Below are positions 13,929 through 22,862 of a stretch of 64,000 bases of DNA, piece after piece. The position numbers were made by a program, and so were the translations under genes. The notes beneath the pieces were generated by a model. That model saw only the letters and a list, made by a program, of their open reading frames with translations, had not been told where the DNA came from and did no database searches. How positions within the stretch are numbered: position 1 is the first letter of the stretch; every line of letters begins with the position of its first letter. Source of the stretch: Escherichia coli (GTDB taxonomy: Bacteria; Pseudomonadota; Gammaproteobacteria; Enterobacterales; Enterobacteriaceae); NCBI RefSeq assembly GCF_013315695.1, contig NZ_CP054354.1; one strand, written 5' to 3'.

Positions 13929-15033
13929 TGTGATACTCCTCGCTATCTGTTGCTTTCAGGAAGAGGCGAACGGAAGTGGCGTCTTTCAGGATGCCGGACG
14001 GCAGGTGCCAGCCGGTATCTGATAACACCCAGGGGGTTCCGCCAAAACCGAACTGGCGGAAAGCCTGGTTATTGACATCGATGGCAGCACGTGCGGCGGT
14101 CAGACACTGTCCATCCTGTGCGGCCGGTGCATCGCCGGTGGGGGCCATACCACTGTCAGCGGAATACAGCTGATGCCATCCGGTCGCCCGTTTTTGTGAG
14201 TCCGGTTCACACAGCAGCGGAGCAGTCCGCTTTGTACTGGACTCCCCGCCAATCACGGAGACCGGATAAATCACCACGCTGAATTCCCGGGCCAGTTGCT
14301 TAAGCGCGGGTTCCAGCAGACGGCAGTTGATGCATGCGGGGTCAAGGAAGGCGTACAGCGTGCGTTCATGACCAGTGGACAGGTTAATGGTGAACATCCC
14401 CCGGTCTGCGTTGCGTTTAAGTACTGTGGCCAGATTACGGCGGGCCTCAGCGGCCTGAACGTGTTGTTCTTCCGTCACTGCCGTCGGGGCGGGGGCAGAA
14501 GAAGGTTCCTGCTGTGTGGGAGCCGGGCGGACCGGGATGCTGTTAACATGATGTTCCGTATGTGGGCGTGGTGTCTCTGTGTCGGTTACTGGTTCAGCTC
14601 TCCATTCCTGAGATGTAGGGTAAGCCAGCGTGGAAGGGGACTCTGCCTTCATCCAGTGGTAACCTGCAACTGTCGCCGGCAGAGCAATTCCGGCGATAAA
14701 GCCACACATCAGTGTCCGCCAGAAGCCATTTTTCCGGGAGGGATGTTTTCCTTTTCCGGCATATTCGGCATCCAGGCAGGCATCAATCGCTGAGAGCATT
14801 CTGCCGATGTGATGTCCGGGACGTTCTGCATCAACGGTATCAACAAGCACCGTTTCGGTTATTTCGCGAAAAGGGGAACTGAAGGACAGGTGCATCAGCC
14901 TGTTATTACGGTTAATCAGTGCGCCCAGTTCTGTGACTGGCAGGATGGCAATCACCTCCCGATTACCGTCAGGGTACAGGGCGGTCAGGGACAGGTGTTT
15001 ATTATTCAGTGTTGCAGTGTAGTGGATGGTCAT
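13909..15033 (-). CDS. trbB: TrbB-like thioredoxin-fold (DsbC-like) protein
   Basis: 374 aa; CxxC motif in FLDPACINC; start overlaps trbA stop (ATGA). Confidence 0.6.
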   Translation of the reverse strand: MTIHYTATLNNKHLSLTALYPDGNREVIAILPVTELGALINRNNRLMHLSFSSPFREITETVLVDTVDAERPGHHIGRMLSAIDACLDAEYAGKGKHPSRKNGFWRTLMCGFIAGIALPATVAGYHWMKAESPSTLAYPTSQEWRAEPVTDTETPRPHTEHHVNSIPVRPAPTQQEPSSAPAPTAVTEEQHVQAAEARRNLATVLKRNADRGMFTINLSTGHERTLYAFLDPACINCRLLEPALKQLAREFSVVIYPVSVIGGESSTKRTAPLLCEPDSQKRATGWHQLYSADSGMAPTGDAPAAQDGQCLTAARAAIDVNNQAFRQFGFGGTPWVLSDTGWHLPSGILKDATSVRLFLKATDSEEYHNEPAPR

Positions 15034-16373
15034 TGTTCTTTTTCCTTGTCGGCGGGATGCTGTTTTTCGGTGGTTTCGGTGGTTTCGGTGGTTTCGGTGG
15101 TTTCGGTGGTTTCGGTGGTTTCGGTGGTTTCGGTGGTTTCGGTGGTTTCGGTGGTTTCACCAGTGTCAGTGTCTTCGTCGTTATCATGGCGGCGGGGTAT
15201 CACGTCATCCGTGAGTGACCAGCGGGTTCTGATCTGACGTTTACGATCGCGATCTGGCTGAGGTTCGTCCCATATCAGGCCCAGCCCCAGCATGTCCCGT
15301 CGAAGCCCTTCAATGGCCTCTTCCACACAGGGTTCCGGGCAGGGGAGGCCGAGACGGCTGGCTTCATTTTCTGCCCGGGCAACGGCCACCACGCCGGCCC
15401 CTTCGATGAAGCCTTTTGTGGTGTTTGCCCGGTGAAGGGCATAGAAGAGCGTCCGGTCAACGCCCTTGAGCCACAGCCAGTTGGGGGGCGTCAGGCGCAA
15501 ATCATGTGCGTAAAGCCAGACCAGACCGCTGCGAACGTAACGGTGCTGCCTGAGCCACTGTTGTGCACCTTCTGTTTTTATGACCCGGATAAAGGCGTTT
15601 CTGGCCAGTGAATACACTGGCGTGCTGAAACGCCCCTGGTCCCGCTTGCTTTTGAGTCTGCAGGAGAGGTTGAGGTTATTCATCAGGGAAACAGCCGCTT
15701 TCCGGTCCCCGAGGAAGAACTGCAGGCCAAAGACGGCAAAGAGCGCTTTTTCATGTGGAGCCATGTCTTTCCAGGTGGTCAGAGGCTGGCCCAGCTGCGC
15801 CATAAAGCGCTGGCGCGTGGCCGCAACATCGAGCTGCATGTTGCGGATAAGGTTGTTCTGCGCCACAAAGACTTCCGGGGTTAGAGCGACACGGCGCTCG
15901 GGACGTTTTTGTCCGTGGAAGAGTCTGTTGCTGTCTCCGTCAGCCAGAACGGGGGCGATCGCCGGTGACAGTGATGAAAACAGATGTGGCAGCGTGTGGA
16001 TATTCAGTGGTCTGCGGGTGAAGCGGGGCTGGGCCGGATGCTGAAACCACATCCACAGAAAGCCGATCGTCATGGGAAGCAGAATCAGCCAGAGGATCCC
16101 CACGGTCTGTGACATGACATCCAGCCACTGGCTGAAAGTGATCGTTGCAGCGTTGTTGGCGGTGTTGGCCAGCAGGTTATAACGGGGGGCGGCAAAATGG
16201 TGAAAAGGCCCCCAGTCAGTCATCCCCCACATTGTGTGCAGGATCAGGCAGGTGGCAAAGACGATGTCGGGTAAAAAGAGCCAGATGAGAAGCGCAAAGA
16301 GCAGACATATGGTGCCAACGATATACCATATGTTCATCGGGTCTTCTGTTGTGGGGGAGTGTTGGTAAGACAC
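15030..16373 (-). CDS. trbA: TrbA-like protein (DotM/IcmP-like) with C-terminal (TTE)n repeat
   Basis: 447 aa; N-terminal TM segments; gene order trbA-trbB-trbC as in R64. Confidence 0.55.
   Translation of the reverse strand: MSYQHSPTTEDPMNIWYIVGTICLLFALLIWLFLPDIVFATCLILHTMWGMTDWGPFHHFAAPRYNLLANTANNAATITFSQWLDVMSQTVGILWLILLPMTIGFLWMWFQHPAQPRFTRRPLNIHTLPHLFSSLSPAIAPVLADGDSNRLFHGQKRPERRVALTPEVFVAQNNLIRNMQLDVAATRQRFMAQLGQPLTTWKDMAPHEKALFAVFGLQFFLGDRKAAVSLMNNLNLSCRLKSKRDQGRFSTPVYSLARNAFIRVIKTEGAQQWLRQHRYVRSGLVWLYAHDLRLTPPNWLWLKGVDRTLFYALHRANTTKGFIEGAGVVAVARAENEASRLGLPCPEPCVEEAIEGLRRDMLGLGLIWDEPQPDRDRKRQIRTRWSLTDDVIPRRHDNDEDTDTGETTETTETTETTETTETTETTETTETTETTEKQHPADKEKEQ
15063..15160. repeat. 9-bp tandem repeat (GGTTTCGGT unit, about 10 copies) inside the trbA 3' end
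   Basis: Direct tandem array in sequence; in-frame, encodes TETTETTE... on the minus strand. Confidence 0.9.
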
Positions 16374-16515
16374 GAGGATTCCTCCATCGATAAATAGATA
16401 AATTTCGGGATGAGGCTGAGTGGAATTAATGCGAACAATCGCCGGTAATGACCGGGCAGGGCTGAATTCAGCAGGGCATTTTCACAGGAACAACAGAAGG
16501 TGGTGAGAGACAGGC

Positions 16516-16547
16516 ACAAAAAAGCCGACTGGTGAGGCCGGCTTTTT
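16516..16547. terminator. bidirectional terminator-like hairpin flanked by A- and T-runs
   Basis: aaaaaagccgactggtgaggccggctttttt; near-identical copy at 17246..17277. Confidence 0.5.
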
Positions 16548-16909
16548 TGCGATCCCAGGGAGAGTGGGTGGCTCTGGCCCGGAGGAAGTCTCTTTTCAAC
16601 TAACGTTACCAGAATATCGTTATATTCACCTGATCGCAATCTGTTCGTTACAGTCTATTGTTCCGGGAGTAGCGATATCGCCTGAAACAAGTATAATCAG
16701 CAAGTTAGCCTTGTCTGGAGACTTACCTTCGCATCAATCCATCGGGACTATGGATCTGTGCTATTCAAAGACCTGGGCGGACAAACAGGTGGTGCTGCGT
16801 CTGGTGCTCTGGCCGGAGGAAGTCTCTTTTCAGCTAACAATGAAAGAGCTGTTGTGACAGGCAATGTAAGAGTAAACAACAGTGATTTCCTCCATTGATG
16901 GAGAAACGG

Positions 16910-17005
16910 ATGATTAACCTGTTAATCATCGTTCTCAGGGCGGTTGTTGCTGTGGCTAACGCAGTGATAGCTCTCCTGGAACTGATCCGGGAACTGGTTG
17001 ACTGA
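16910..17005 (+). CDS. small hydrophobic peptide, 31 aa; candidate type I toxin (DinQ/TisB-like)
   Basis: MINLLIIVLRAVVAVANAVIALLELIRELVD; GGAG RBS lies inside the palindrome CTCCAT-TG-ATGGAG; strong terminator follows; tandem duplicate at 17594..17689. Confidence 0.4.
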   Translation: MINLLIIVLRAVVAVANAVIALLELIRELVD

Positions 17006-17026
17006 TAATCCCGGAAACGTACTTAA

Positions 17027-17056
17027 GGGCAGAGGGTCACCGCCCTCTGCCCTTTA
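17027..17056 (+). terminator. rho-independent terminator
   Basis: Perfect 10-bp stem GGGCAGAGGG / CCCTCTGCCC, loop TCACCG, then TTT. Confidence 0.65.
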
Positions 17057-17245
17057 ATAATCTACGGACAGATTACTTTCTGTACTTCCAGAGCCTGTTT
17101 CTGTGAGTCAAACATGAGCTGGTTTTTACCGACTACACCCAAGTAAATATATTCGATATCTCCCATTTGCCGTATTTTCGTAAAATTCAACAGGAAATAT
17201 TCAACGGGAGTGAGAGAACTGCTGTCCGGGGAGGAGGTACAGACG

Positions 17246-17277
17246 CAAAAAAACCGACTGGTGAGGCCGGTTTTTTT
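17246..17277. terminator. bidirectional terminator-like hairpin (copy 2)
   Basis: aaaaaaaccgactggtgaggccggttttttt. Confidence 0.5.
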
Positions 17278-17593
17278 GCGATTCCGGATCGAAGTTGGTA
17301 GCCCTGACCGGAAGATAACTGCCTATAACTGACTATGAAATAATACGGCTGAAATAATATTTCTGCAAGCACAGTATAAGTATATACTCGGTGTGTCAGC
17401 TTTGAGGCACGTTCTTTCCGGCATATCGTTCACCGGGATGAACAGGTTGCAAGTCCTGGCCAAAACATCAGGTGGTGCTGGTTTTGGTGCTCTGGCCGGA
17501 GAAGAACTGTCTATAACTGACACTATAGAAAACGTGGCGACAGGCAATGTAAGGGCAAACCACGGTGTTCTTTCTCCATTGATGGAGAAGCGG

Positions 17594-17689
17594 ATGATTA
17601 ACCTGTTAATCATCGTTCTCAGGGCGGTTGTTGCTGTGGCTAACGCAGTGATAGCAATCCTGGAACTGATCCGGGAACTGGTTGACTGA
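17594..17689 (+). CDS. small hydrophobic peptide, 31 aa; candidate type I toxin (copy 2)
   Basis: MINLLIIVLRAVVAVANAVIAILELIRELVD; same RBS palindrome and terminator; the track ORF 17393..17689 is an in-frame upstream extension. Confidence 0.4.
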   Translation: MINLLIIVLRAVVAVANAVIAILELIRELVD

Positions 17690-17710
17690 TAATCCCGGAA
17701 ACGTACTTAA

Positions 17711-17740
17711 GGGCAGAGGGTCACCGCCTTCTGCCCTTTA
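17711..17740 (+). terminator. rho-independent terminator (copy 2)
   Basis: GGGCAGAGGG-TCACCG-CCTTCTGCCC then TTT. Confidence 0.6.
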
Positions 17741-18078
17741 ACAAAATATGCTCAGGTTAAAAATCGAAAACCTTCCTGCACTTCCTGTGCCTGTTCCCGT
17801 GAGTCAAACATGAGCCGGCTTTTACCCGGAACTCCCCAGGAAATATATTCTACATCCACCCACCATTTTCCGTATTCTTCATACGGTCCGGATATCACTT
17901 TAGTGACAAATGCATCAACCAGGTTCATTTTTACACCTTTCTGTTATTCTGCTTATTACGACCAGCAGACAGCAAATATTAAAAATAACGCGGCGGTAAA
18001 AATGGCAATTTTTTTCCATGCTGTATTTTTGCCATTTATTTTCTTTGAAATGGTTTTTTTCTTCATATCAGCAAATAA

Positions 18079-18546
18079 TTATTTCTTATTCTGTTTTCTC
18101 CAGGTCCATGGTGGTACCGGATTTTTATCTGCCCATAATCCCCGCTTCAGGGCGCGGGCATCACGCTGGAGCGGCGGGAGAGTATAGTCATTATTGTAGT
18201 CCGGGTACACCCAGGCAGCGCCGTTACGGACCTGCCAGCGATTTGCTTCTGTGCCGTCAGCGGTATAGACCCGGCCGAGAATACGGCCATACCTGTCTGT
18301 CTGCGCGTATTGCACGGTTACGGGCTTTCCGGCCACCAGGTCCTTCAGCTGAGTGGCTGACCAGCGTCCAAAGGGCTGTTTCTTTTCCGGTGCATCAATA
18401 TTAGCCAGACGGACCCTGACAGGCTTTTTGTCCTGTAATATTTCCAGCGTATCACCATCAAGAACGCGGATGACGTGCCCCTGAATCTGTGCAGCACAGA
18501 GAGAAGCGGAAAAAATAATGGTGAGTGAAAAGATATATTTTATCAT
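18079..18546 (-). CDS. nuc: secreted thermonuclease (staphylococcal nuclease-like)
   Basis: 155 aa; signal peptide MIKYIFSLTIIFSASLCAA; VIRVLDGDTLEI and RLANIDAPE motifs typical of SNase-fold nucleases. Confidence 0.7.
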   Translation of the reverse strand: MIKYIFSLTIIFSASLCAAQIQGHVIRVLDGDTLEILQDKKPVRVRLANIDAPEKKQPFGRWSATQLKDLVAGKPVTVQYAQTDRYGRILGRVYTADGTEANRWQVRNGAAWVYPDYNNDYTLPPLQRDARALKRGLWADKNPVPPWTWRKQNKK

Positions 18547-18648: not shown

Positions 18649-19329
18649 ATGAATTCCAGTACGCTGATATCCGTGATGATACGGCAACAGATATCCGGTG
18701 ACGGTATGCAGGAACATATTGATTATCAGATTGAGAAATATCAGTTCAGGGCCAGGAATGAGTCACCGCGACTGATGCGCCAGTGGGAAGATGTCATGCG
18801 TGAATGCCGTGATACCGGAGCAGGAGCCAGGGAGCGGCTGCGGATTGCCTTACTTAATGTTGATTATGTGACCAGTTTTGAACTGCCGTTTCGTCTGCTG
18901 TTAACCCGGACACCGCAGATGATTGACAGCGTGCGGCGGGAATGGCAGCTCAGCCAGAAAAAAGTTGTATTCAATGAGCGGCAGCGGGGATGTGTATACA
19001 GTCTGCAGAATGACTTATCCGGCGTGCCGGATAGCTTCAGTTACAGTCTTGCGACGCGAATACGGCGGGCGGACAGCTATGGCATGACGACGCGTTGTTT
19101 CACTGATATAGCCGGGCAGGTTAAAGCCCCGACAGCACGGCTGAAACTGGCGCTGGAAAGCGGGTTAATTGTCACCGCGCTGGATGGTCTGTTCTGGCTT
19201 GGTATTCAACGTATTGCCGCAGATGTGCAGCGGCTGCGTCAGTCCGGAATGACAATCATCACCCGGGATGTTGAGGTCTCAGACTCGCTGACCGGAACCA
19301 CACGGGTTGTTTCCGGGTACAGCCTTTGA
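18649..19329 (+). CDS. hypothetical protein, up to 226 aa
   Basis: ORF only; true start may be internal; no confident motif. Confidence 0.35.
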   Translation: MNSSTLISVMIRQQISGDGMQEHIDYQIEKYQFRARNESPRLMRQWEDVMRECRDTGAGARERLRIALLNVDYVTSFELPFRLLLTRTPQMIDSVRREWQLSQKKVVFNERQRGCVYSLQNDLSGVPDSFSYSLATRIRRADSYGMTTRCFTDIAGQVKAPTARLKLALESGLIVTALDGLFWLGIQRIAADVQRLRQSGMTIITRDVEVSDSLTGTTRVVSGYSL

Positions 19330-20734: not shown

Positions 20735-20985
20735 ACGTAGTCACTTTCCGGCTTTATTTCTGTCCCTGACACAAAATACGTGGTGGCATGAAAAGGATTG
20801 TGGCGGACTGGAAAACGATTAGAATAGCGGCGGGCGCTTGAGGCTGTATGCCGAAAGCGTTTTGTGGACGGCATGTAGCAGAAAGCCCCAGGCGATTTTT
20901 TTATCAATCAACCCAGGGCCCACTGTAATGCCTCAACAACATTATAGTAGCCCGATGACGGCCGAAAGGCAATGGAGGGGCTGCG

Positions 20986-21138
20986 ATGCCACAACGAACG
21001 TTTTTAATGATGTTAATCGTCGTCTGTGTGACGATACTGTGTTTTGTCTGGATGGTGAGGGATTCGCTTTGCGGATTTCGTATCGAGCAGGGAAATACGG
21101 TGCTTGTGGCAACGTTAGCCTACGAAGTTAAACGTTAA
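20986..21138 (+). CDS. hok: Hok/Gef-family type I toxin (PndA/Hok-like), 50 aa
   Basis: Not in ORF track (<60 aa). MPQRTFLMMLIVVCVTILCFVWMVRDSLCGFRIEQGNTVLVATLAYEVKR matches the Hok/PndA pattern; overlapped in another frame by ORF 20838..21131 (mok-like). Confidence 0.7.
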   Translation: MPQRTFLMMLIVVCVTILCFVWMVRDSLCGFRIEQGNTVLVATLAYEVKR

Positions 21139-21275: not shown

Positions 21276-22862
21276 TCAATTATGACAGTCGCTCTCATTT
21301 AGTTGTCTCTGGTTAGATGTATTATTAGATATTTTCGGGGTAATTCGATAAAAGTTATCCACTTCAGCACCAGACTGAATGATATATGCAATAAGATCTA
21401 AACGATGAATCTCGTATCGTGTACGTAACTCCATCATTTCACGCCATGCTAAAATCCTTGATGTTTTCAGTTCAGCCTCTATAAGTTTCCATGTGTTTGT
21501 TGAGATGGCATGTTCTTCCAGCTGACGTAACGAGAACCTATCACTAATGACCAACCATCCCCATCCTCGAGTATGTGCCCATTTGCGACCTGCATTACTT
21601 TTTATTCTCGTGAGACTCAAGGTCATTCGGTCTGTTGGCTTCACTTCCATAAGTAGGCACCGACCATCAACTGTCGCAATGAGTAAATCTGGATAGTATT
21701 TTTTTGATTTGTTTTTAAAACAATATGGAATAGAAAATGGTTGTTCTTGATAGAAAAGAACCTGATCGCAACATTCTAATAGATTCATTATTTTAAACTC
21801 AAGCCCTGATTCGTACTGGACTGTACGACCTAATTTTTGAGAGTAAAAGAATCCAGATATGTCAGTATCATTAACCGCTCTCTGTGAACATAGCTGTTCT
21901 ACGGGGGGAGGAGGTGCGATATATTTTGGCCAATGTGTATTGTCTAGCCATTTACTGAATATGAACTCAACTCTTTCTTTCTTGATTCGGGCTCTTTCCT
22001 GAGCGCGAGCGTGTGCTAATTCTGCTCTTCGTTCACGTAACCTCTGCTTTTGTAATTGTGATATTAATGAGAGCGAACTTTTTATTTCATCTCGTCTTGC
22101 TTTAGGAATGCCTGCGGTAAAAATAATGAATTTGGCGGCTAAGTCAGAGGATGTAACGAAATCCCGATGAACAATACGATAAATCCATACTGCTATATCA
22201 TATGGTGAATTACCTATTGAGTTAATAAGGGCTTTAAGGCAAGCTCCAGGTGTCCCTTCATAGCGAGATTTAGCAGCTAGTAAGCCAAGGGCTCGTTCCT
22301 GAAGTTGTCTTACCCTTTCACGGGAAATTCCTAATTTGACGGCAATATCTGCCAGAGAATGAGGTGAATCATCTGTGCCGAGTCGCATTAGAAGAATATA
22401 TTGATGTCGTTTATTAGATAAACTTTCGATAGCAGAATGAATTAGCATAATGACATCATGTTCATCGGCTATATAATCTTTAAAATCTGTATTGGGTTGG
22501 CAGAGGGGGAGTGGGGTATTTTGTTTAAAACTATTCTTTTGTATTTCAACTTTATCATGAGCAATTGTTTTTGCAGTGCTCAATGATATTAAATTATTGA
22601 TGATACTATTGTGTTCTTGGCGAGGAATCTTGTTGAAGTAATTGCTGAGATCATTCACCGTGTTTATATCGTTGAACTCAAGAAACTCAGAAGGAAGCAG
22701 GCGTTTGATTGCTCCACGTATTCCCCCGGACGATCGTTGATGTGTTTGAGTAAGTTTTTTTAGCGAGACGCCCTCCGCTATGGATACGAGAAGACGCTGT
22801 AACTCTTCAGTATTCCATGGAGTACCATGTCGTGCTGGAAAATTGCTGCGGGATTCAGACAT
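21276..22862 (-). CDS. sigma-70 region-4-like HTH fused to PD-(D/E)xK (TnsA-like) nuclease motif; unknown function
   Basis: 528 aa; HQYILLMRLGTDDSPHSLADIAVKLGISRERVRQLQERALGLL fits sigma-70 region 4.2; C-terminal YYPDLLIATVDGRCLLMEVKP fits PD...EVK; lies in a visibly AT-rich segment. Confidence 0.55.
   Translation of the reverse strand: MSESRSNFPARHGTPWNTEELQRLLVSIAEGVSLKKLTQTHQRSSGGIRGAIKRLLPSEFLEFNDINTVNDLSNYFNKIPRQEHNSIINNLISLSTAKTIAHDKVEIQKNSFKQNTPLPLCQPNTDFKDYIADEHDVIMLIHSAIESLSNKRHQYILLMRLGTDDSPHSLADIAVKLGISRERVRQLQERALGLLAAKSRYEGTPGACLKALINSIGNSPYDIAVWIYRIVHRDFVTSSDLAAKFIIFTAGIPKARRDEIKSSLSLISQLQKQRLRERRAELAHARAQERARIKKERVEFIFSKWLDNTHWPKYIAPPPPVEQLCSQRAVNDTDISGFFYSQKLGRTVQYESGLEFKIMNLLECCDQVLFYQEQPFSIPYCFKNKSKKYYPDLLIATVDGRCLLMEVKPTDRMTLSLTRIKSNAGRKWAHTRGWGWLVISDRFSLRQLEEHAISTNTWKLIEAELKTSRILAWREMMELRTRYEIHRLDLIAYIIQSGAEVDNFYRITPKISNNTSNQRQLNESDCHN

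What the first reader, a model, noticed from the sequence alone, without database searches (positions are those of the whole stretch)
17956..18546. Secreted thermonuclease followed by a possible 36-aa membrane peptide ORF
The SNase-like nuclease gene (signal peptide, so periplasmic or secreted) is followed 12 nt downstream on the minus strand by a short ORF (18066 down to 17956) encoding MKKKTISKKINGKNTAWKKIAIFTAALFLIFAVCWS, which has a basic N-terminus and one hydrophobic helix. No good RBS is evident, so this is tentative.
Basis: partly seen in the sequence, partly recalled or inferred. Interest (0 to 1): 0.3.

Follow-up and report, generated by a model that had tools for sequence, protein, structure and literature searches.

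The report
Plasmid nuclease beside conserved small membrane-peptide gene
An ordinary exported nuclease gene on an IncI-complex resistance plasmid is followed by a 36-codon reading frame that is very likely a real small membrane-protein gene of unknown function, one that belongs with the genes downstream of it rather than with the nuclease.

Summary
The window is an IncK/B/O/Z (I-complex) conjugative plasmid, in the excA-trbA interval.

**Nuclease.** 18546-18079(-) encodes a 155-aa staphylococcal-nuclease-fold enzyme with a signal-peptide-like N-terminus and all catalytic residues. RefSeq already names it "thermonuclease family protein".

**Small ORF.** Twelve nt downstream, 18066-17956(-) encodes the 36-aa peptide exactly as written. 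It has no Shine-Dalgarno sequence.
- An ORF of this size is not beyond chance on its own. Comparison across relatives shows it is a gene.
- Relatives occur in IncI1/I-gamma plasmids, where pESBL annotates it as "Hp28" (O3K_26007), and in four more distant lineages.
- All 15 pairwise comparisons of the 23-codon core give pS 0.65-1.1 against pN 0.17-0.44, in this frame only.
- Start, stop and 36-codon length are conserved in three lineages.
- The family shares a W-E-K/R/Q motif followed by one transmembrane helix.

**No link to the nuclease.**
- Relatives of the small ORF occur in other contexts without the nuclease, and the nuclease occurs without it.
- Homology to those relatives breaks inside the 12-nt spacer.
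- The constant neighbours are the 58-aa gene and a convergent dqlB/agrB type I toxin locus.

**Caveats.**
- 203 of 375 sister plasmids carry a 1-nt deletion that frameshifts the ORF.
- Recent variation in the ORF looks neutral.
- Translation is untested and the function is unknown.

The parts
18079..18546 (-). nuc: 155-aa SNase/thermonuclease-family nuclease (WP_000598962.1).
   Evidence: Pfam PF00565, E = 6.5e-22. RefSeq annotation "thermonuclease family protein". Alignment to S. aureus nuclease conserves D32, R46, D51, E54 and the Y-G-R arginine, which match SNase D21, R35, D40, E43 and R87.
18490..18546 (-). Signal-peptide-like N-terminus of nuc (MIKYIFSLTIIFSASLCAA, likely cleaved before QIQ).
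   Evidence: Read from the sequence: a short basic n-region, a 13-residue hydrophobic core, then C-A-A. The SNase fold alignment only starts at residue 25. The segment is conserved in diverged homologues. No signal-peptide predictor was available.
18067..18078 (-). 12-nt spacer: the joint between the nuclease module and the small-ORF module.
   Evidence: Homology to the pO113 nuc ends at the nuc stop codon (query position 620 = window 18081, H31). Protein-level homology to the IncI1/I-gamma module starts at the ATG of the small ORF, and upstream sequence is unrelated. Detectable DNA homology to that module starts further in, at about window 18030 (H44-H54).
17956..18066 (-). Small ORF of 36 aa: K-type member of the Hp28 (O3K_26007) small-membrane-peptide family.
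   Evidence: ORF frame against IncI1-type: pS 0.91, pN 0.33, Fisher p = 1.7e-6. The other five frames give ratios of 0.66-1.5. All 15 pairwise core comparisons among six lineages show pS well above pN in this frame only. 18 related protein clusters found. The exact peptide is OSL05395.1, seen on 173 contigs.
18009..18015 (-). A7 run inside the small ORF (codons 18-20), an indel hotspot.
   Evidence: Alleles seen: A6 (28-aa frameshifted product; internal ATG gives MEKIAIFTAALFLIFAVCWS), A7 (this window, intact), A8 (50-aa product) and GGGA6 (intact). The A6 allele is in 203 plasmid records, including pMS7163B.
17959..18018 (-). Conserved core of the small ORF: W-(E/K/G)-K interfacial motif plus a 17-residue transmembrane helix.
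   Evidence: Invariant or near-invariant columns W17, K19, I20, A21, I22, T24, A25, F28, I30, F31, A32, V33 and W35 across K- and I1-type sequences. The motif persists in the distant relatives P0095-P0098.
17752..17928 (-). 58-aa ORF (WP_001054907.1; Hp27 of pESBL), downstream partner of the small ORF in K- and I1-type plasmids.
   Evidence: Annotated CDS. dN/dS 0.05 against IncI1. Matches phrog_8110, E = 2.2e-18. AlphaFold model of three strands plus a helix, pLDDT 79.5. In pESBL-type plasmids the small ORF's stop overlaps its ATG.
17704..17738 (.). Hairpin (GGGCAGAGGG...CTTCTGCCC) between the convergent 58-aa ORF and dqlB; likely a bidirectional terminator.
   Evidence: Arms of inverted repeats I1 and I4. 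The same hairpin directly follows the small ORF in L026 and L027-L029. The terminator role is inferred from position and shape; the terminator scan did not list it.
17594..17689 (+). dqlB (DinQ-like type I toxin), convergent neighbour; context only, not part of the finding.
   Evidence: RefSeq annotation. AgrB-like RNA at 17245-17332(-), Rfam 47.7 bits. It pairs with the dqlB 5' UTR, z = -5.2.
18706..19329 (+). Divergent winged-HTH gene (ECs1377 family) that travels with nuc.
   Evidence: NCBIfam NF052300, E = 7.1e-90; Pfam HTH_39. The same divergent pair is present in pO113 and in L028/L029.

Best explanation
Two unrelated modules abut here.

**1. The nuclease.** nuc encodes a staphylococcal-nuclease-fold enzyme. 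I infer that it is exported across the inner membrane by a Sec-type signal peptide and acts as a Ca2+-dependent, sequence-nonspecific nuclease in the periplasm or outside the cell. With its divergent winged-HTH gene it forms a cargo module; nuclease homologues are widespread on conjugative plasmids.

**2. The small ORF.** It is a genuine protein-coding gene, the K-type member of a small-protein family that includes "Hp28" of the IncI1 plasmid pESBL.
- Its product has a Lys-rich N-terminal segment (+8), which I infer stays in the cytoplasm.
- It then has a conserved W-(E/K)-K motif, inferred to lie at the membrane interface.
- It ends in one transmembrane helix that runs to the C-terminus, so the peptide would be tail-anchored in the inner membrane with its N-terminus inside.
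- It belongs with the downstream 58-aa gene and the convergent dqlB/agrB addiction locus in the excA-trbA accessory islet, not with the nuclease.
- The 12-nt spacer is the recombination joint between the two modules.

**Translation (inferred).** There is no Shine-Dalgarno sequence. Initiation would rely on an unstructured, 81% A+U start region, and in this plasmid also on re-initiation by ribosomes that terminate at the nuc stop 12 nt upstream.

**Function (inferred, weakest step).**
- A low-abundance membrane peptide that acts in the plasmid-carrying cell, probably by binding or modulating another membrane component, as most characterised enterobacterial small membrane proteins do.
- It would affect plasmid carriage rather than DNA transfer.
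- It is at least partly dispensable in the K lineage.

**Shown:** gene identities, conservation, modular independence.
**Inferred:** export, topology, mode of translation, function.
For: **Nuclease**
- SNase domain at 78.5 bits.
- Catalytic residues and side-chain Ca-ligand residues conserved.
- At least 5000 plasmid records match the 1-kb query, 4798 of them conjugative. Most listed weak hits fall on "thermonuclease family protein" genes.

**Small ORF is coding**
- Against IncI1-type, the ORF frame gives pS 0.91 and pN 0.33 (p = 1.7e-6). The two other sense frames give ratios of 0.77-1.16. The third-position-coincident antisense frame gives only 0.66 (p = 0.06).
- In six lineages, all 15 pairwise comparisons of the core have pS 0.65-1.1 against pN 0.17-0.44 in this frame only.
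- ATG, stop position and 36-codon length are conserved in the K-type, I1-type and P0098 lineages.
- An exhaustive profile search finds only small proteins with the same motif plus helix.
- In IncI1 plasmids, 42 of 43 sampled records show no net indel in this stretch.

**Modularity**
- Contexts without nuc.
- nuc without the ORF.
- Homology breakpoints.
- The small ORF lies directly convergent with dqlB in two further lineages.

**Translation**
- No SD sequence, and a start-region MFE of -2.9 kcal/mol at 81% A+U.

**Literature**
- The same group later suggested that a TnSeq-"essential" gene might be an antitoxin (PMC7602700).
Against: - No direct evidence of translation exists. No Shine-Dalgarno sequence is present in most lineages.
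- RefSeq/PGAP does not annotate the ORF in any of the K-type RefSeq records examined. One RefSeq record annotates only the 50-aa frameshifted form.
- 203 of 375 K-type plasmid records carry the A6 frameshift allele. Other shifted alleles exist, and two of them (L006, L008) leave no ATG in frame with the helix.
- Variation within the K and I1 lineages is almost all non-synonymous: window against L007 has 5 non-synonymous and 0 synonymous changes. Recent evolution therefore looks neutral.
- In pMS7163B, which carries the A6 allele, TraDIS found only the replicon and parAB to be required for maintenance, and did not list this region among the conjugation genes (PMC10286972).
- About 5% of IncI1-type records have a 26-nt deletion that replaces the C-terminus.
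- The "essential" call in pESBL rests on very few TA sites. The authors themselves said the region may not be protein-coding.
- The pairwise comparisons are not phylogenetically independent.
Confidence: 0.75

Rival explanations
1. The family is real, but in K-type plasmids the gene is a decaying relic. It is under relaxed selection, dispensable, and on its way to becoming a pseudogene. On this view the intact A7 allele in the window has no present function.
For: - 54% of sister plasmids carry the A6 frameshift allele. Further shifted alleles (L004, L006, L008) were found.
- Within-lineage changes are nearly all non-synonymous.
- pMS7163B carries the A6 allele, yet it is stable and conjugative, and TraDIS did not flag this region.
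- A clearly decayed copy of the small ORF plus the 58-aa ORF lies next to an SNase gene in L028/L029.
Against: - The 3' half, which encodes the helix, is DNA-invariant among the 9 K-type sequences aligned, apart from 2 changes in L010.
- The A6 and A8 alleles each keep an ATG in frame with the whole conserved core, giving 20-aa and 26-aa products. A double-frameshift variant that restores the helix frame also exists (P0013).
- 42 of 43 sampled IncI1-type records show no net indel in this stretch.
Confidence: 0.3
2. The peptide is a membrane-active toxin of a type I-like toxin-antitoxin or addiction module. It would resemble its neighbours Hok and DqlB, and be kept silent by poor translation signals.
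For: - It is small, with one hydrophobic helix and no Shine-Dalgarno sequence.
- It sits in an islet with hok/sok and two dqlB/agrB modules.
- It is convergent with dqlB in four lineages.
- Frequent frameshift alleles are what one would expect if a toxin were being lost.
Against: - No match to any toxin family in Pfam, NCBIfam or PADLOC.
- No Rfam RNA overlaps it. The AgrB-like RNA does not pair with its mRNA (z = 0.0, against -5.2 for dqlB).
- Conservation starts at the ATG, so there is no conserved 5' UTR. The ORF lies 12 nt behind nuc, 42 nt behind hha, or overlapping an upstream ORF, so it is embedded in operons rather than forming its own unit.
- In pESBL, insertions in it were depleted rather than tolerated.
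Confidence: 0.1
3. The ORF is an upstream or leader ORF. Its translation, rather than its product, controls expression of the 58-aa gene through coupling.
For: - In pESBL-type IncI1 plasmids its stop overlaps the ATG of the 58-aa gene (ATGA).
- Phage homologues of the 58-aa gene overlap the preceding gene by 4 nt in all three phage loci examined.
Against: - Amino-acid-level conservation of the helix and the W-E-K motif.
- In the window the 58-aa gene has its own RBS, 27 nt after the stop.
- The small ORF occurs without any 58-aa gene in L026 and L027-L029.
Confidence: 0.08
4. The ORF is a chance reading frame in A+T-rich non-coding DNA. On this view, the conservation reflects a DNA or RNA element, or an antisense gene.
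For: - ORFs of this size are common here (99 of at least 25 aa in 6.5 kb).
- No RBS.
- PGAP omits it.
- A 125-aa antisense ORF at 17810-18187(+) shares third positions with it.
- The pESBL authors raised the possibility that the region may not be protein-coding.
Against: - The synonymous excess is frame-specific: ratio 0.36 for the ORF frame against 0.66 for the antisense shadow frame and about 1 for the rest. It is reproduced in 15 of 15 lineage pairs.
- Start, stop and length are conserved, while the antisense ORF has no conserved boundaries.
- The 7-9-bp hairpin in the K-type sequence, seen by eye, is not conserved in the I1-type.
Confidence: 0.06
5. The peptide is a functional partner of the nuclease, for example a membrane anchor, export helper or immunity factor.
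For: - Adjacency, with a 12-nt gap on the same strand.
- A decayed nuc / small ORF / 58-aa arrangement in L028/L029 shows that the juxtaposition is not unique to this plasmid group.
Against: - The two genes occur independently of each other.
- The homology blocks break in the spacer.
- SNase homologues on other plasmid types lack the ORF: pO113 and the other plasmid types listed.
Confidence: 0.03

Closest known systems
Staphylococcal nuclease (SNase/thermonuclease, Pfam PF00565) and plasmid-borne homologues
   Same: - Same fold family (78.5 bits).
- Conserved D, R, D, E and R active-site and Ca-ligand residues.
- An N-terminal export signal.
- RP4/RK2 ParB is also reported to be an SNase-like Ca2+-dependent nuclease; that is from my own knowledge and was not checked here.
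   Different: - About 30% identical to S. aureus nuclease (estimated by eye from the alignment).
- T41 is replaced by Ala; that position binds Ca through a backbone ligand.
- Below the NCBIfam cut-offs for the NucI and EcnA equivalogs.
- No biochemical data exist for this plasmid protein.
IncI1/IncL-M "Nuc" (EDTA-resistant nuclease of R64 and pESBL; phospholipase-D-family Nuc of pOXA-48)
   Same: A plasmid-borne accessory nuclease that is dispensable for transfer (PMC4288162; PMC12365149).
   Different: - A different protein family: PLD in pOXA-48 against SNase here.
- A different location: between sogL and traK in IncI1 plasmids, and in the par operon in IncL/M plasmids.
Hp28 (O3K_26007) / Hp27 (O3K_26002) of IncI1 plasmid pESBL
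   Same: - The small ORF is the K-type counterpart of Hp28, and the 58-aa gene is the counterpart of Hp27.
- Same order, same position next to dqlB in the excA-trbA interval, and the same W-E-K plus helix core.
   Different: - Only 33-44% identical overall, with an unrelated N-terminal half.
- The pESBL form has a 26-nt deletion that gives a basic C-terminal tail and an ATGA overlap with Hp27.
- It lies after hha there and after nuc here.
- Hp28 itself has never been characterised.
Characterised enterobacterial small inner-membrane proteins (for example MgrB, AcrZ, MgtS, CydX)
   Same: Under 50 aa, with a single transmembrane helix, and often missed by annotation. This comparison is from my own knowledge and concerns how the peptide may work, not family membership.
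   Different: - No sequence similarity to any of them (no Pfam or NCBIfam hit).
- Plasmid-borne.
- No Shine-Dalgarno sequence.
- The partner protein is unknown.
Type I toxins (Hok/Gef, DinQ/DqlB)
   Same: A small hydrophobic peptide lying among such loci.
   Different: - No cognate antisense RNA.
- No conserved 5' UTR.
- No family match.
- Opposite charge layout: a basic N-terminus with a C-terminal helix, whereas DqlB has an N-terminal helix and an acidic tail.

Membership tests
SNase / thermonuclease (PF00565) | Match to the SNase domain model above the curated cut-off. | tested here: met
   78.5 bits against a cut-off of 21, E = 6.5e-22, covering model positions 1-107 of 107.
SNase / thermonuclease (PF00565) | Catalytic and Ca2+-binding residues (SNase D21, R35, D40, T41, E43, R87). 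| tested here: met
   D32, R46, D51, E54 and the R of Y-G-R align to D21, R35, D40, E43 and R87. T41 aligns to A52, a position that binds Ca through the backbone. SNase residue numbering is from my own knowledge.
SNase / thermonuclease (PF00565) | Export signal, giving a secreted or periplasmic enzyme. | tested here: inconclusive
   The N-terminal 19-23 residues have the n-h-c layout of a signal peptide, lie outside the fold alignment, and are conserved in homologues. No predictor or experiment was available.
SNase / thermonuclease (PF00565) | Ca2+-dependent nuclease activity. | not testable with these tools
   Needs an enzyme assay.
NCBIfam equivalogs NucI (NF047694) and EcnA (NF047969) | Score above the equivalog cut-off. 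| tested here: not met
   45.4 bits against 250, and 38.9 bits against 180.
IncI1 Nuc (EDTA-resistant, PLD-type nuclease) | Phospholipase-D (HKD) family membership, and a position between sogL and traK. | tested here: not met
   The protein is SNase-fold, not PLD, and lies between excA and trbA.
Hp28-type small membrane peptide family (unnamed) | W-(E/K/G)-(K/R/Q) motif followed by a hydrophobic helix of about 17 residues at the C-terminus; total length 36-61 aa. | tested here: met
   Alignment A7. The family profile recovers family members at 36-84 bits. The window peptide itself is listed in a protein cluster of this family.
Hp28-type small membrane peptide family (unnamed) | Purifying selection in the ORF frame. 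| tested here: met
   Searches show it between lineages. It is not seen within lineages.
Hp28-type small membrane peptide family (unnamed) | Position upstream of the 58-aa gene and/or convergent with dqlB, in the excA-trbA interval of MPF_I plasmids. | tested here: met
Hp28-type small membrane peptide family (unnamed) | The peptide is made and inserted in the inner membrane. | not testable with these tools
   No proteomic or Ribo-seq evidence was found.
Type I toxin-antitoxin toxin | Match to a known toxin family. | tested here: not met
   No hit in Pfam, NCBIfam or PADLOC at E up to 0.1.
Type I toxin-antitoxin toxin | A cognate antisense or trans-acting RNA antitoxin. | tested here: not met
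   No Rfam hit overlaps 17930-18110. AgrB-like RNA against the small-ORF mRNA gives z = 0.0, against -5.2 for the dqlB control. An undescribed RNA is not excluded.
Type I toxin-antitoxin toxin | Toxicity on expression. | not testable with these tools
   Needs an induction experiment.
Bacterial lipoprotein signal peptide | A lipobox L-[AS]-[GA]-C followed by a mature protein. | tested here: not met
   F-A-V-C is not a lipobox, and only two residues follow the Cys (read from the sequence).

The most novel reading that the evidence does not exclude
The peptide is the missing protein-level component of the plasmid's addiction islet. It would be a membrane peptide that counteracts or tunes a membrane toxin such as the convergent DqlB.

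- That would explain why Hp28 scored as "essential" in the pESBL TnSeq.
- The homopolymer indels (A6, A7, A8) would then switch between 20-, 36- and 26-aa isoforms rather than inactivate the gene. Each of the three keeps the conserved core in frame behind a different ATG.
Probability: 0.08. Interest if true: 0.6.

Novelty: new member of a known kind. Interest (0 to 1): 0.33.

Why it matters
I-complex plasmids (IncI1, IncK, IncB/O, IncZ) are major carriers of ESBL and AmpC genes in E. coli, Shigella and Salmonella.

- The nuclease adds nothing new.
- The small ORF belongs to an unnamed small-membrane-protein family that is present in roughly 2000 sequenced plasmids. RefSeq largely omits it, and its IncI1 member is one of the TnSeq-"essential" genes of pESBL that I found no explanation for (hp7, flagged with it, proved to be ParB).
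- Showing that it evolves as a protein, and that it belongs with the 58-aa gene and the dqlB islet rather than with nuc, gives a defined target for a simple experiment on plasmid carriage.
- It also shows how homopolymer frameshifts and a missing RBS make annotation pipelines drop real small genes.

The practical consequence is modest unless a function in plasmid maintenance is found.

Tried and rejected
1. **tblastn of the 36-aa peptide against plasmids:** no match, not even to itself. A 34-nt A7 query also gave no match. I attribute both to the low-complexity filter, so exact counts for the A7 allele could not be obtained; about 5% is estimated.
2. **First working conclusion, \"not a gene because frameshifted in most relatives\":** reversed once the IncI1 homologues were aligned.
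3. **Distant 58-aa homologues P0082 and P0090:** these turned out to be error-ridden metagenome assemblies of the same plasmid type and were not informative.
4. **AlphaFold model of the 58-aa protein plus Foldseek against PDB:** no match better than E = 0.2.
5. **Phage homologues of the 58-aa gene (phrog_8110):** they sit among small early or accessory genes, once after an endolysin and once after an unrelated 43-aa membrane peptide. No function followed.
6. **Residual homology of the small-ORF region to the AgrB part of the tandem dqlB modules:** not convincing.
7. **Promoter and terminator scans:** nothing above shuffled expectation near the ORF. The K-type hairpin AAATGGCAA...TTGCCATTT, seen by eye, is not conserved in the I1-type.
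8. **AgrB pairing with the small-ORF mRNA:** none.
9. **pOXA-48:** its dqlB locus has no such ORF, so the association with dqlB is not obligatory.
10. **Search for a PLD-type nuc in the window by the HKD motif:** none found.
11. **Salmonella small-protein census (PMC10117436):** no trace of the peptide in the text or in the supplements held.
12. **PADLOC:** no defence-system match for the small ORF, the 58-aa ORF or the HTH gene. The nuclease matches only a generic SNase-domain model.
Full report
**What the window is.** The 1-kb stretch around the finding is 99.7-100% identical to dozens of Escherichia and Shigella conjugative plasmids typed IncK2/Z, IncB/O or I-gamma/K1, with MPF_I transfer systems. 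In RefSeq records it lies in the accessory islet between excA and trbA. The gene order, read on the window's minus strand, is:
- Hok/Gef
- four hypothetical genes
- a helix-turn-helix gene on the opposite strand
- "thermonuclease family protein"
- a 58-aa hypothetical gene
- two copies of the type I toxin dqlB on the opposite strand
- trbA

**Check of the observation.**
- nuc is 18546-18079(-), 155 aa.
- A 12-nt spacer follows.
- The ORF 18066-17956(-) translates to exactly the quoted 36-aa peptide.
- There is no Shine-Dalgarno sequence. The best anti-SD duplex is 0.0 kcal/mol, against -8.7 for nuc and -3.9 for the 58-aa gene.
- The peptide has +8 net charge in residues 1-19 and a mean hydropathy of 2.41 in residues 20-36. 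Only 4 of 238 ORFs of 30-60 aa in the window are as hydrophobic.
- An ORF of this length is not itself unusual: there are 99 ORFs of at least 25 aa in the surrounding 6.5 kb.

**The nuclease.**
- It matches Pfam SNase over the whole model (78.5 bits). It aligns with S. aureus nuclease so that D32, R46, D51, E54 and the arginine of Y-G-R fall on SNase D21, R35, D40, E43 and R87 (SNase numbering from my own knowledge).
- The first 19 or so residues (MIKYIFSLTIIFSASLCAA) lie outside the fold and look like a Sec signal peptide. No predictor was available, so export is inferred.
- It scores below the NCBIfam cut-offs for the named equivalogs NucI and EcnA.
- Homologues are widespread. At least 5000 plasmid records match the 1-kb query, 4798 of them conjugative, mostly at 60-80% identity over the nuclease gene.
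- It is not the "Nuc" of the IncI1 literature. That gene is the EDTA-resistant nuclease between sogL and traK and is dispensable for transfer (PMC4288162). It is also not the phospholipase-D-family Nuc of pOXA-48.
- The nuclease travels with a divergent winged-HTH gene of the ECs1377 family.
- This part of the finding is ordinary and already annotated.

**The small ORF: first impression.** Among nine K-type sequences the ORF carries single-base indels in its two A-runs.
- The commonest allele has A6 instead of the window's A7 at 18009-18015. It reads MKKKTISKKINGKNTAWKKLPFLPPRYF and loses the helix.
- This allele is in 203 of the 375 plasmid records that match the stretch, including pMS7163B.
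- An A8 allele gives a 50-aa product, which PGAP annotated once.
- Two other alleles (L006, L008) are shifted elsewhere.
- The intact alleles differ from the window only by non-synonymous changes in the N-terminal half, while the 3' half is nearly DNA-invariant.
- Taken alone, this pattern suggested non-coding DNA.

**The small ORF: the reversal.**
- IncI1 and I-gamma plasmids match the window at DNA level only from about position 18030 downstream. Aligning them showed a homologous ORF immediately upstream of their copy of the 58-aa gene:
  - MNTGISMRRNNLRRIPHEKNIIWEKIAIITASAFIIFAVFWH in L011
  - ...IIWEKIAIITASALIIFNTKRKKQ in L012
- From the second ATG this ORF is again exactly 36 codons long, with the stop at the same place.
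- Over those 36 codons the window and L011 differ at 48 of 108 nucleotides. The proportion of synonymous sites changed is 0.91 and of non-synonymous sites 0.33 (Fisher p = 1.7e-6).
- The other two sense frames give ratios of 0.77-1.16.
- The antisense frame whose third positions coincide gives 0.66 (p = 0.06). That frame carries a 125-aa shadow ORF at 17810-18187(+). The remaining antisense frames give 1.1-1.5.
- The 58-aa gene, used as a positive control, has dN/dS 0.05.

**Wider family.**
- A word-indexed search found 14 protein clusters. An exhaustive profile search of 1.8 billion representatives found four more distant relatives:

| Relative | Length | Sequence |
|---|---|---|
| P0095 | 38 aa | MMKNLKFHAEPPENNTFWERVAIVTAAAFILFAVFWRT |
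| P0096 | 98-aa ORF call; only the C-terminal 28 residues match | ...RNTRWEQIAIITAALFFIFAVLIHG |
| P0097 | 61 aa | MGKYKQQSKNFNGKHIVWEKLAILVAVLFILCALLWPELHRR... |
| P0098 | 36 aa | MRKRKQKRGEGEKPLVWEKLAMLTAGAFLILAILGE |

- With DNA from their contigs, all 15 pairwise comparisons of the 23-codon core among six lineages show pS 0.65-1.1 against pN 0.17-0.44 in the ORF frame. No such excess appears in the other two frames.
- The pairs are not independent, but the direction never varies.
- I conclude that this is a protein-coding gene family: a variable basic N-terminus, a W-(E/K/G)-(K/R/Q) motif, and one transmembrane helix that ends the protein.
- It has no Pfam, NCBIfam, PHROG or PADLOC family.
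- The exact window peptide exists in GenBank as a "hypothetical protein" (OSL05395.1, seen on 173 contigs). The IncI1 form is O3K_26007, "Hp28", of pESBL.

**What it belongs with.** It does not belong with the nuclease.
- In IncI1 and I-gamma plasmids the ORF follows hha or a HEAT-repeat gene.
- In an IncI-like plasmid (L026) it lies between a tacAT module and trbA.
- In L027-L029 it overlaps the end of a 107-aa gene, 1.5 kb from an SNase gene.
- Conversely, pO113 has the HTH-nuc module, with homology ending exactly at the nuc stop codon and no small ORF.
- The 12-nt spacer is therefore a module joint.
- The recurring neighbours are the 58-aa gene and a convergent dqlB. In pESBL-type plasmids the small ORF overlaps the 58-aa gene's start by ATGA.
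- In L026 and L027-L029 the small ORF is followed directly by the GGGCAGA...TCTGCCC hairpin and dqlB, with no 58-aa gene between them.
- The link to dqlB is not obligatory. pOXA-48, where DqlB/agrB was validated experimentally (PMC12365149), has no such ORF. In addition, dqlB is far better conserved between lineages (87-100% at the amino-acid level) than the small ORF, so the two are not co-evolving tightly.
- A decayed copy of the small ORF plus the 58-aa ORF lies right after the SNase gene in L028/L029. The juxtaposition with nuc is therefore older than the K-type plasmids, yet it can be lost.

**How it may be expressed.**
- The start region (-30 to +33) is 81% A+U and essentially unstructured: MFE -2.9 kcal/mol, with shuffles at -1.9 ± 1.6.
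- In three of four contexts an upstream same-strand ORF ends within 42 nt of the start or overlaps it.
- I infer SD-independent initiation, helped in this plasmid by termination and re-initiation after nuc. This is inference from established knowledge of E. coli translation, not a result.

**Function.** It is unknown, and I can only rank possibilities.
- The pESBL TnSeq classed Hp28 as "essential" for replication or maintenance and irrelevant to transfer (0.22/0.76/0.02). The authors noted that it had no homologue of known function and might not be coding (PMC4288162).
- The same group later showed that hp7, flagged alongside it, is ParB. They also suggested that a remaining "essential" gene might be an antitoxin (PMC7602700).
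- Against a strong role:
  - The K-type plasmid pMS7163B carries the frameshift allele.
  - In its TraDIS, only the replicon and parAB were needed for maintenance (PMC10286972).
  - Recent variation in both lineages looks neutral.
- Three observations keep open the possibility that the shifted alleles still make the conserved core:
  - The A6 allele retains an ATG in frame with the whole core, giving MEKIAIF... (20 aa).
  - The A8 allele does the same, giving MAKIQHGKKIAIF... (26 aa).
  - A double-frameshift variant restores the helix frame (P0013).
- A type I toxin reading is unlikely, for four reasons:
  - There is no family match.
  - There is no antisense RNA in Rfam.
  - The AgrB-like RNA does not pair with its mRNA (z = 0.0, against -5.2 for the dqlB control).
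  - There is no conserved 5' UTR.
- My best guess is a low-abundance, tail-anchored inner-membrane peptide that modulates another membrane component in the plasmid-bearing cell.

**The 58-aa gene.**
- It is strongly conserved and matches phrog_8110.
- It has phage homologues in Aeromonas, Pseudomonas and crAss-like phages. In the three phage loci examined they overlap the preceding gene by 4 nt.
- In Pseudomonas phage AH02 that preceding gene is an unrelated 43-aa membrane peptide.
- Its model is three strands plus a helix (pLDDT 79.5), with no significant PDB neighbour. No function follows.

**Verdict.**
- The nuclease is ordinary and already annotated.
- The small ORF is very probably a real, evolutionarily conserved but uncharacterised small membrane-protein gene. 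It sits next to the nuclease by module juxtaposition.
- It is intact in this window but frameshifted in most of its closest relatives.
- Interest is modest: a well-supported unannotated small gene on an important plasmid family, with one unexplained TnSeq phenotype and no known function.

Noticed in passing
window 16465-17160 and 17184-17856: Two tandem modules of about 690 bp. Each holds the 3' part of a 58-aa ORF(-), a GC-rich hairpin, a dqlB type I toxin gene(+) (16910-17005 and 17594-17689), and an AgrB-like RNA(-) (16516-16603 at 37.4 bits, below the gathering score of 40; 17245-17332 at 47.7 bits). The AgrB-like RNA of copy B pairs with the dqlB-B 5' UTR (dG -74 kcal/mol, z = -5.2). The system is known from pOXA-48 (PMC12365149); here it is duplicated.
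   Followed up: partly
window 20832-21138: A hok/sok-type (pnd) addiction locus: the sok RNA matches Rfam RF01794 at 124.7 bits at 20832-20988(+), and the 50-aa Hok/Gef ORF lies at 20986-21138(+).
   Followed up: no
window 15065-15158 (inside trbA, 15030-16373, minus strand): A perfect 9-nt tandem repeat of 10.4 copies (TTTCGGTGG on the plus strand) encodes a (T-E-T)n tail at the C-terminus of TrbA. Annotated trbA lengths differ between sister plasmids (1263-1326 nt), so the repeat number probably varies.
   Followed up: no
window 17810-18187 (+): A 125-aa antisense ORF runs across the start of the 58-aa gene, the whole small ORF and the 3' end of nuc. Its third codon positions coincide with those of the small ORF. 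It shows only a weak echo of the selection signal (ratio 0.66) and has no conserved boundaries, so it is a shadow ORF.
   Followed up: yes
window 17752-17928 (-); L022-L024: The 58-aa hypothetical protein belongs to phrog_8110 and has homologues at 38-53% identity in Aeromonas, Pseudomonas, Bacteroides and crAss-like phages. In the three phage loci examined, the start overlaps the preceding gene by 4 nt. In Pseudomonas phage AH02 the preceding gene is a 43-aa membrane peptide.
   Followed up: partly
L028/L029 3437-3700 and 5001-5111: An E. coli plasmid contig has a decayed small ORF plus 58-aa ORF right after its SNase gene. A second, intact but diverged small ORF (P0098) lies 1.5 kb downstream, directly convergent with dqlB.
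   Followed up: partly
window 21276-22862 (-): A 528-aa ORF, annotated in pO26-Vir as a TnsA-endonuclease-N-terminal-domain protein, lies between excA and the hok locus. It is absent from the otherwise identical stretch of NZ_CP026770.1.
   Followed up: no
window 18054-18060 and 18009-18015 (-): Two A7 runs lie inside a 111-nt ORF. Both are sites of 1-nt indels among sister plasmids. Whether these are inherited alleles, recurrent slippage or homopolymer sequencing errors was not resolved.
   Followed up: partly
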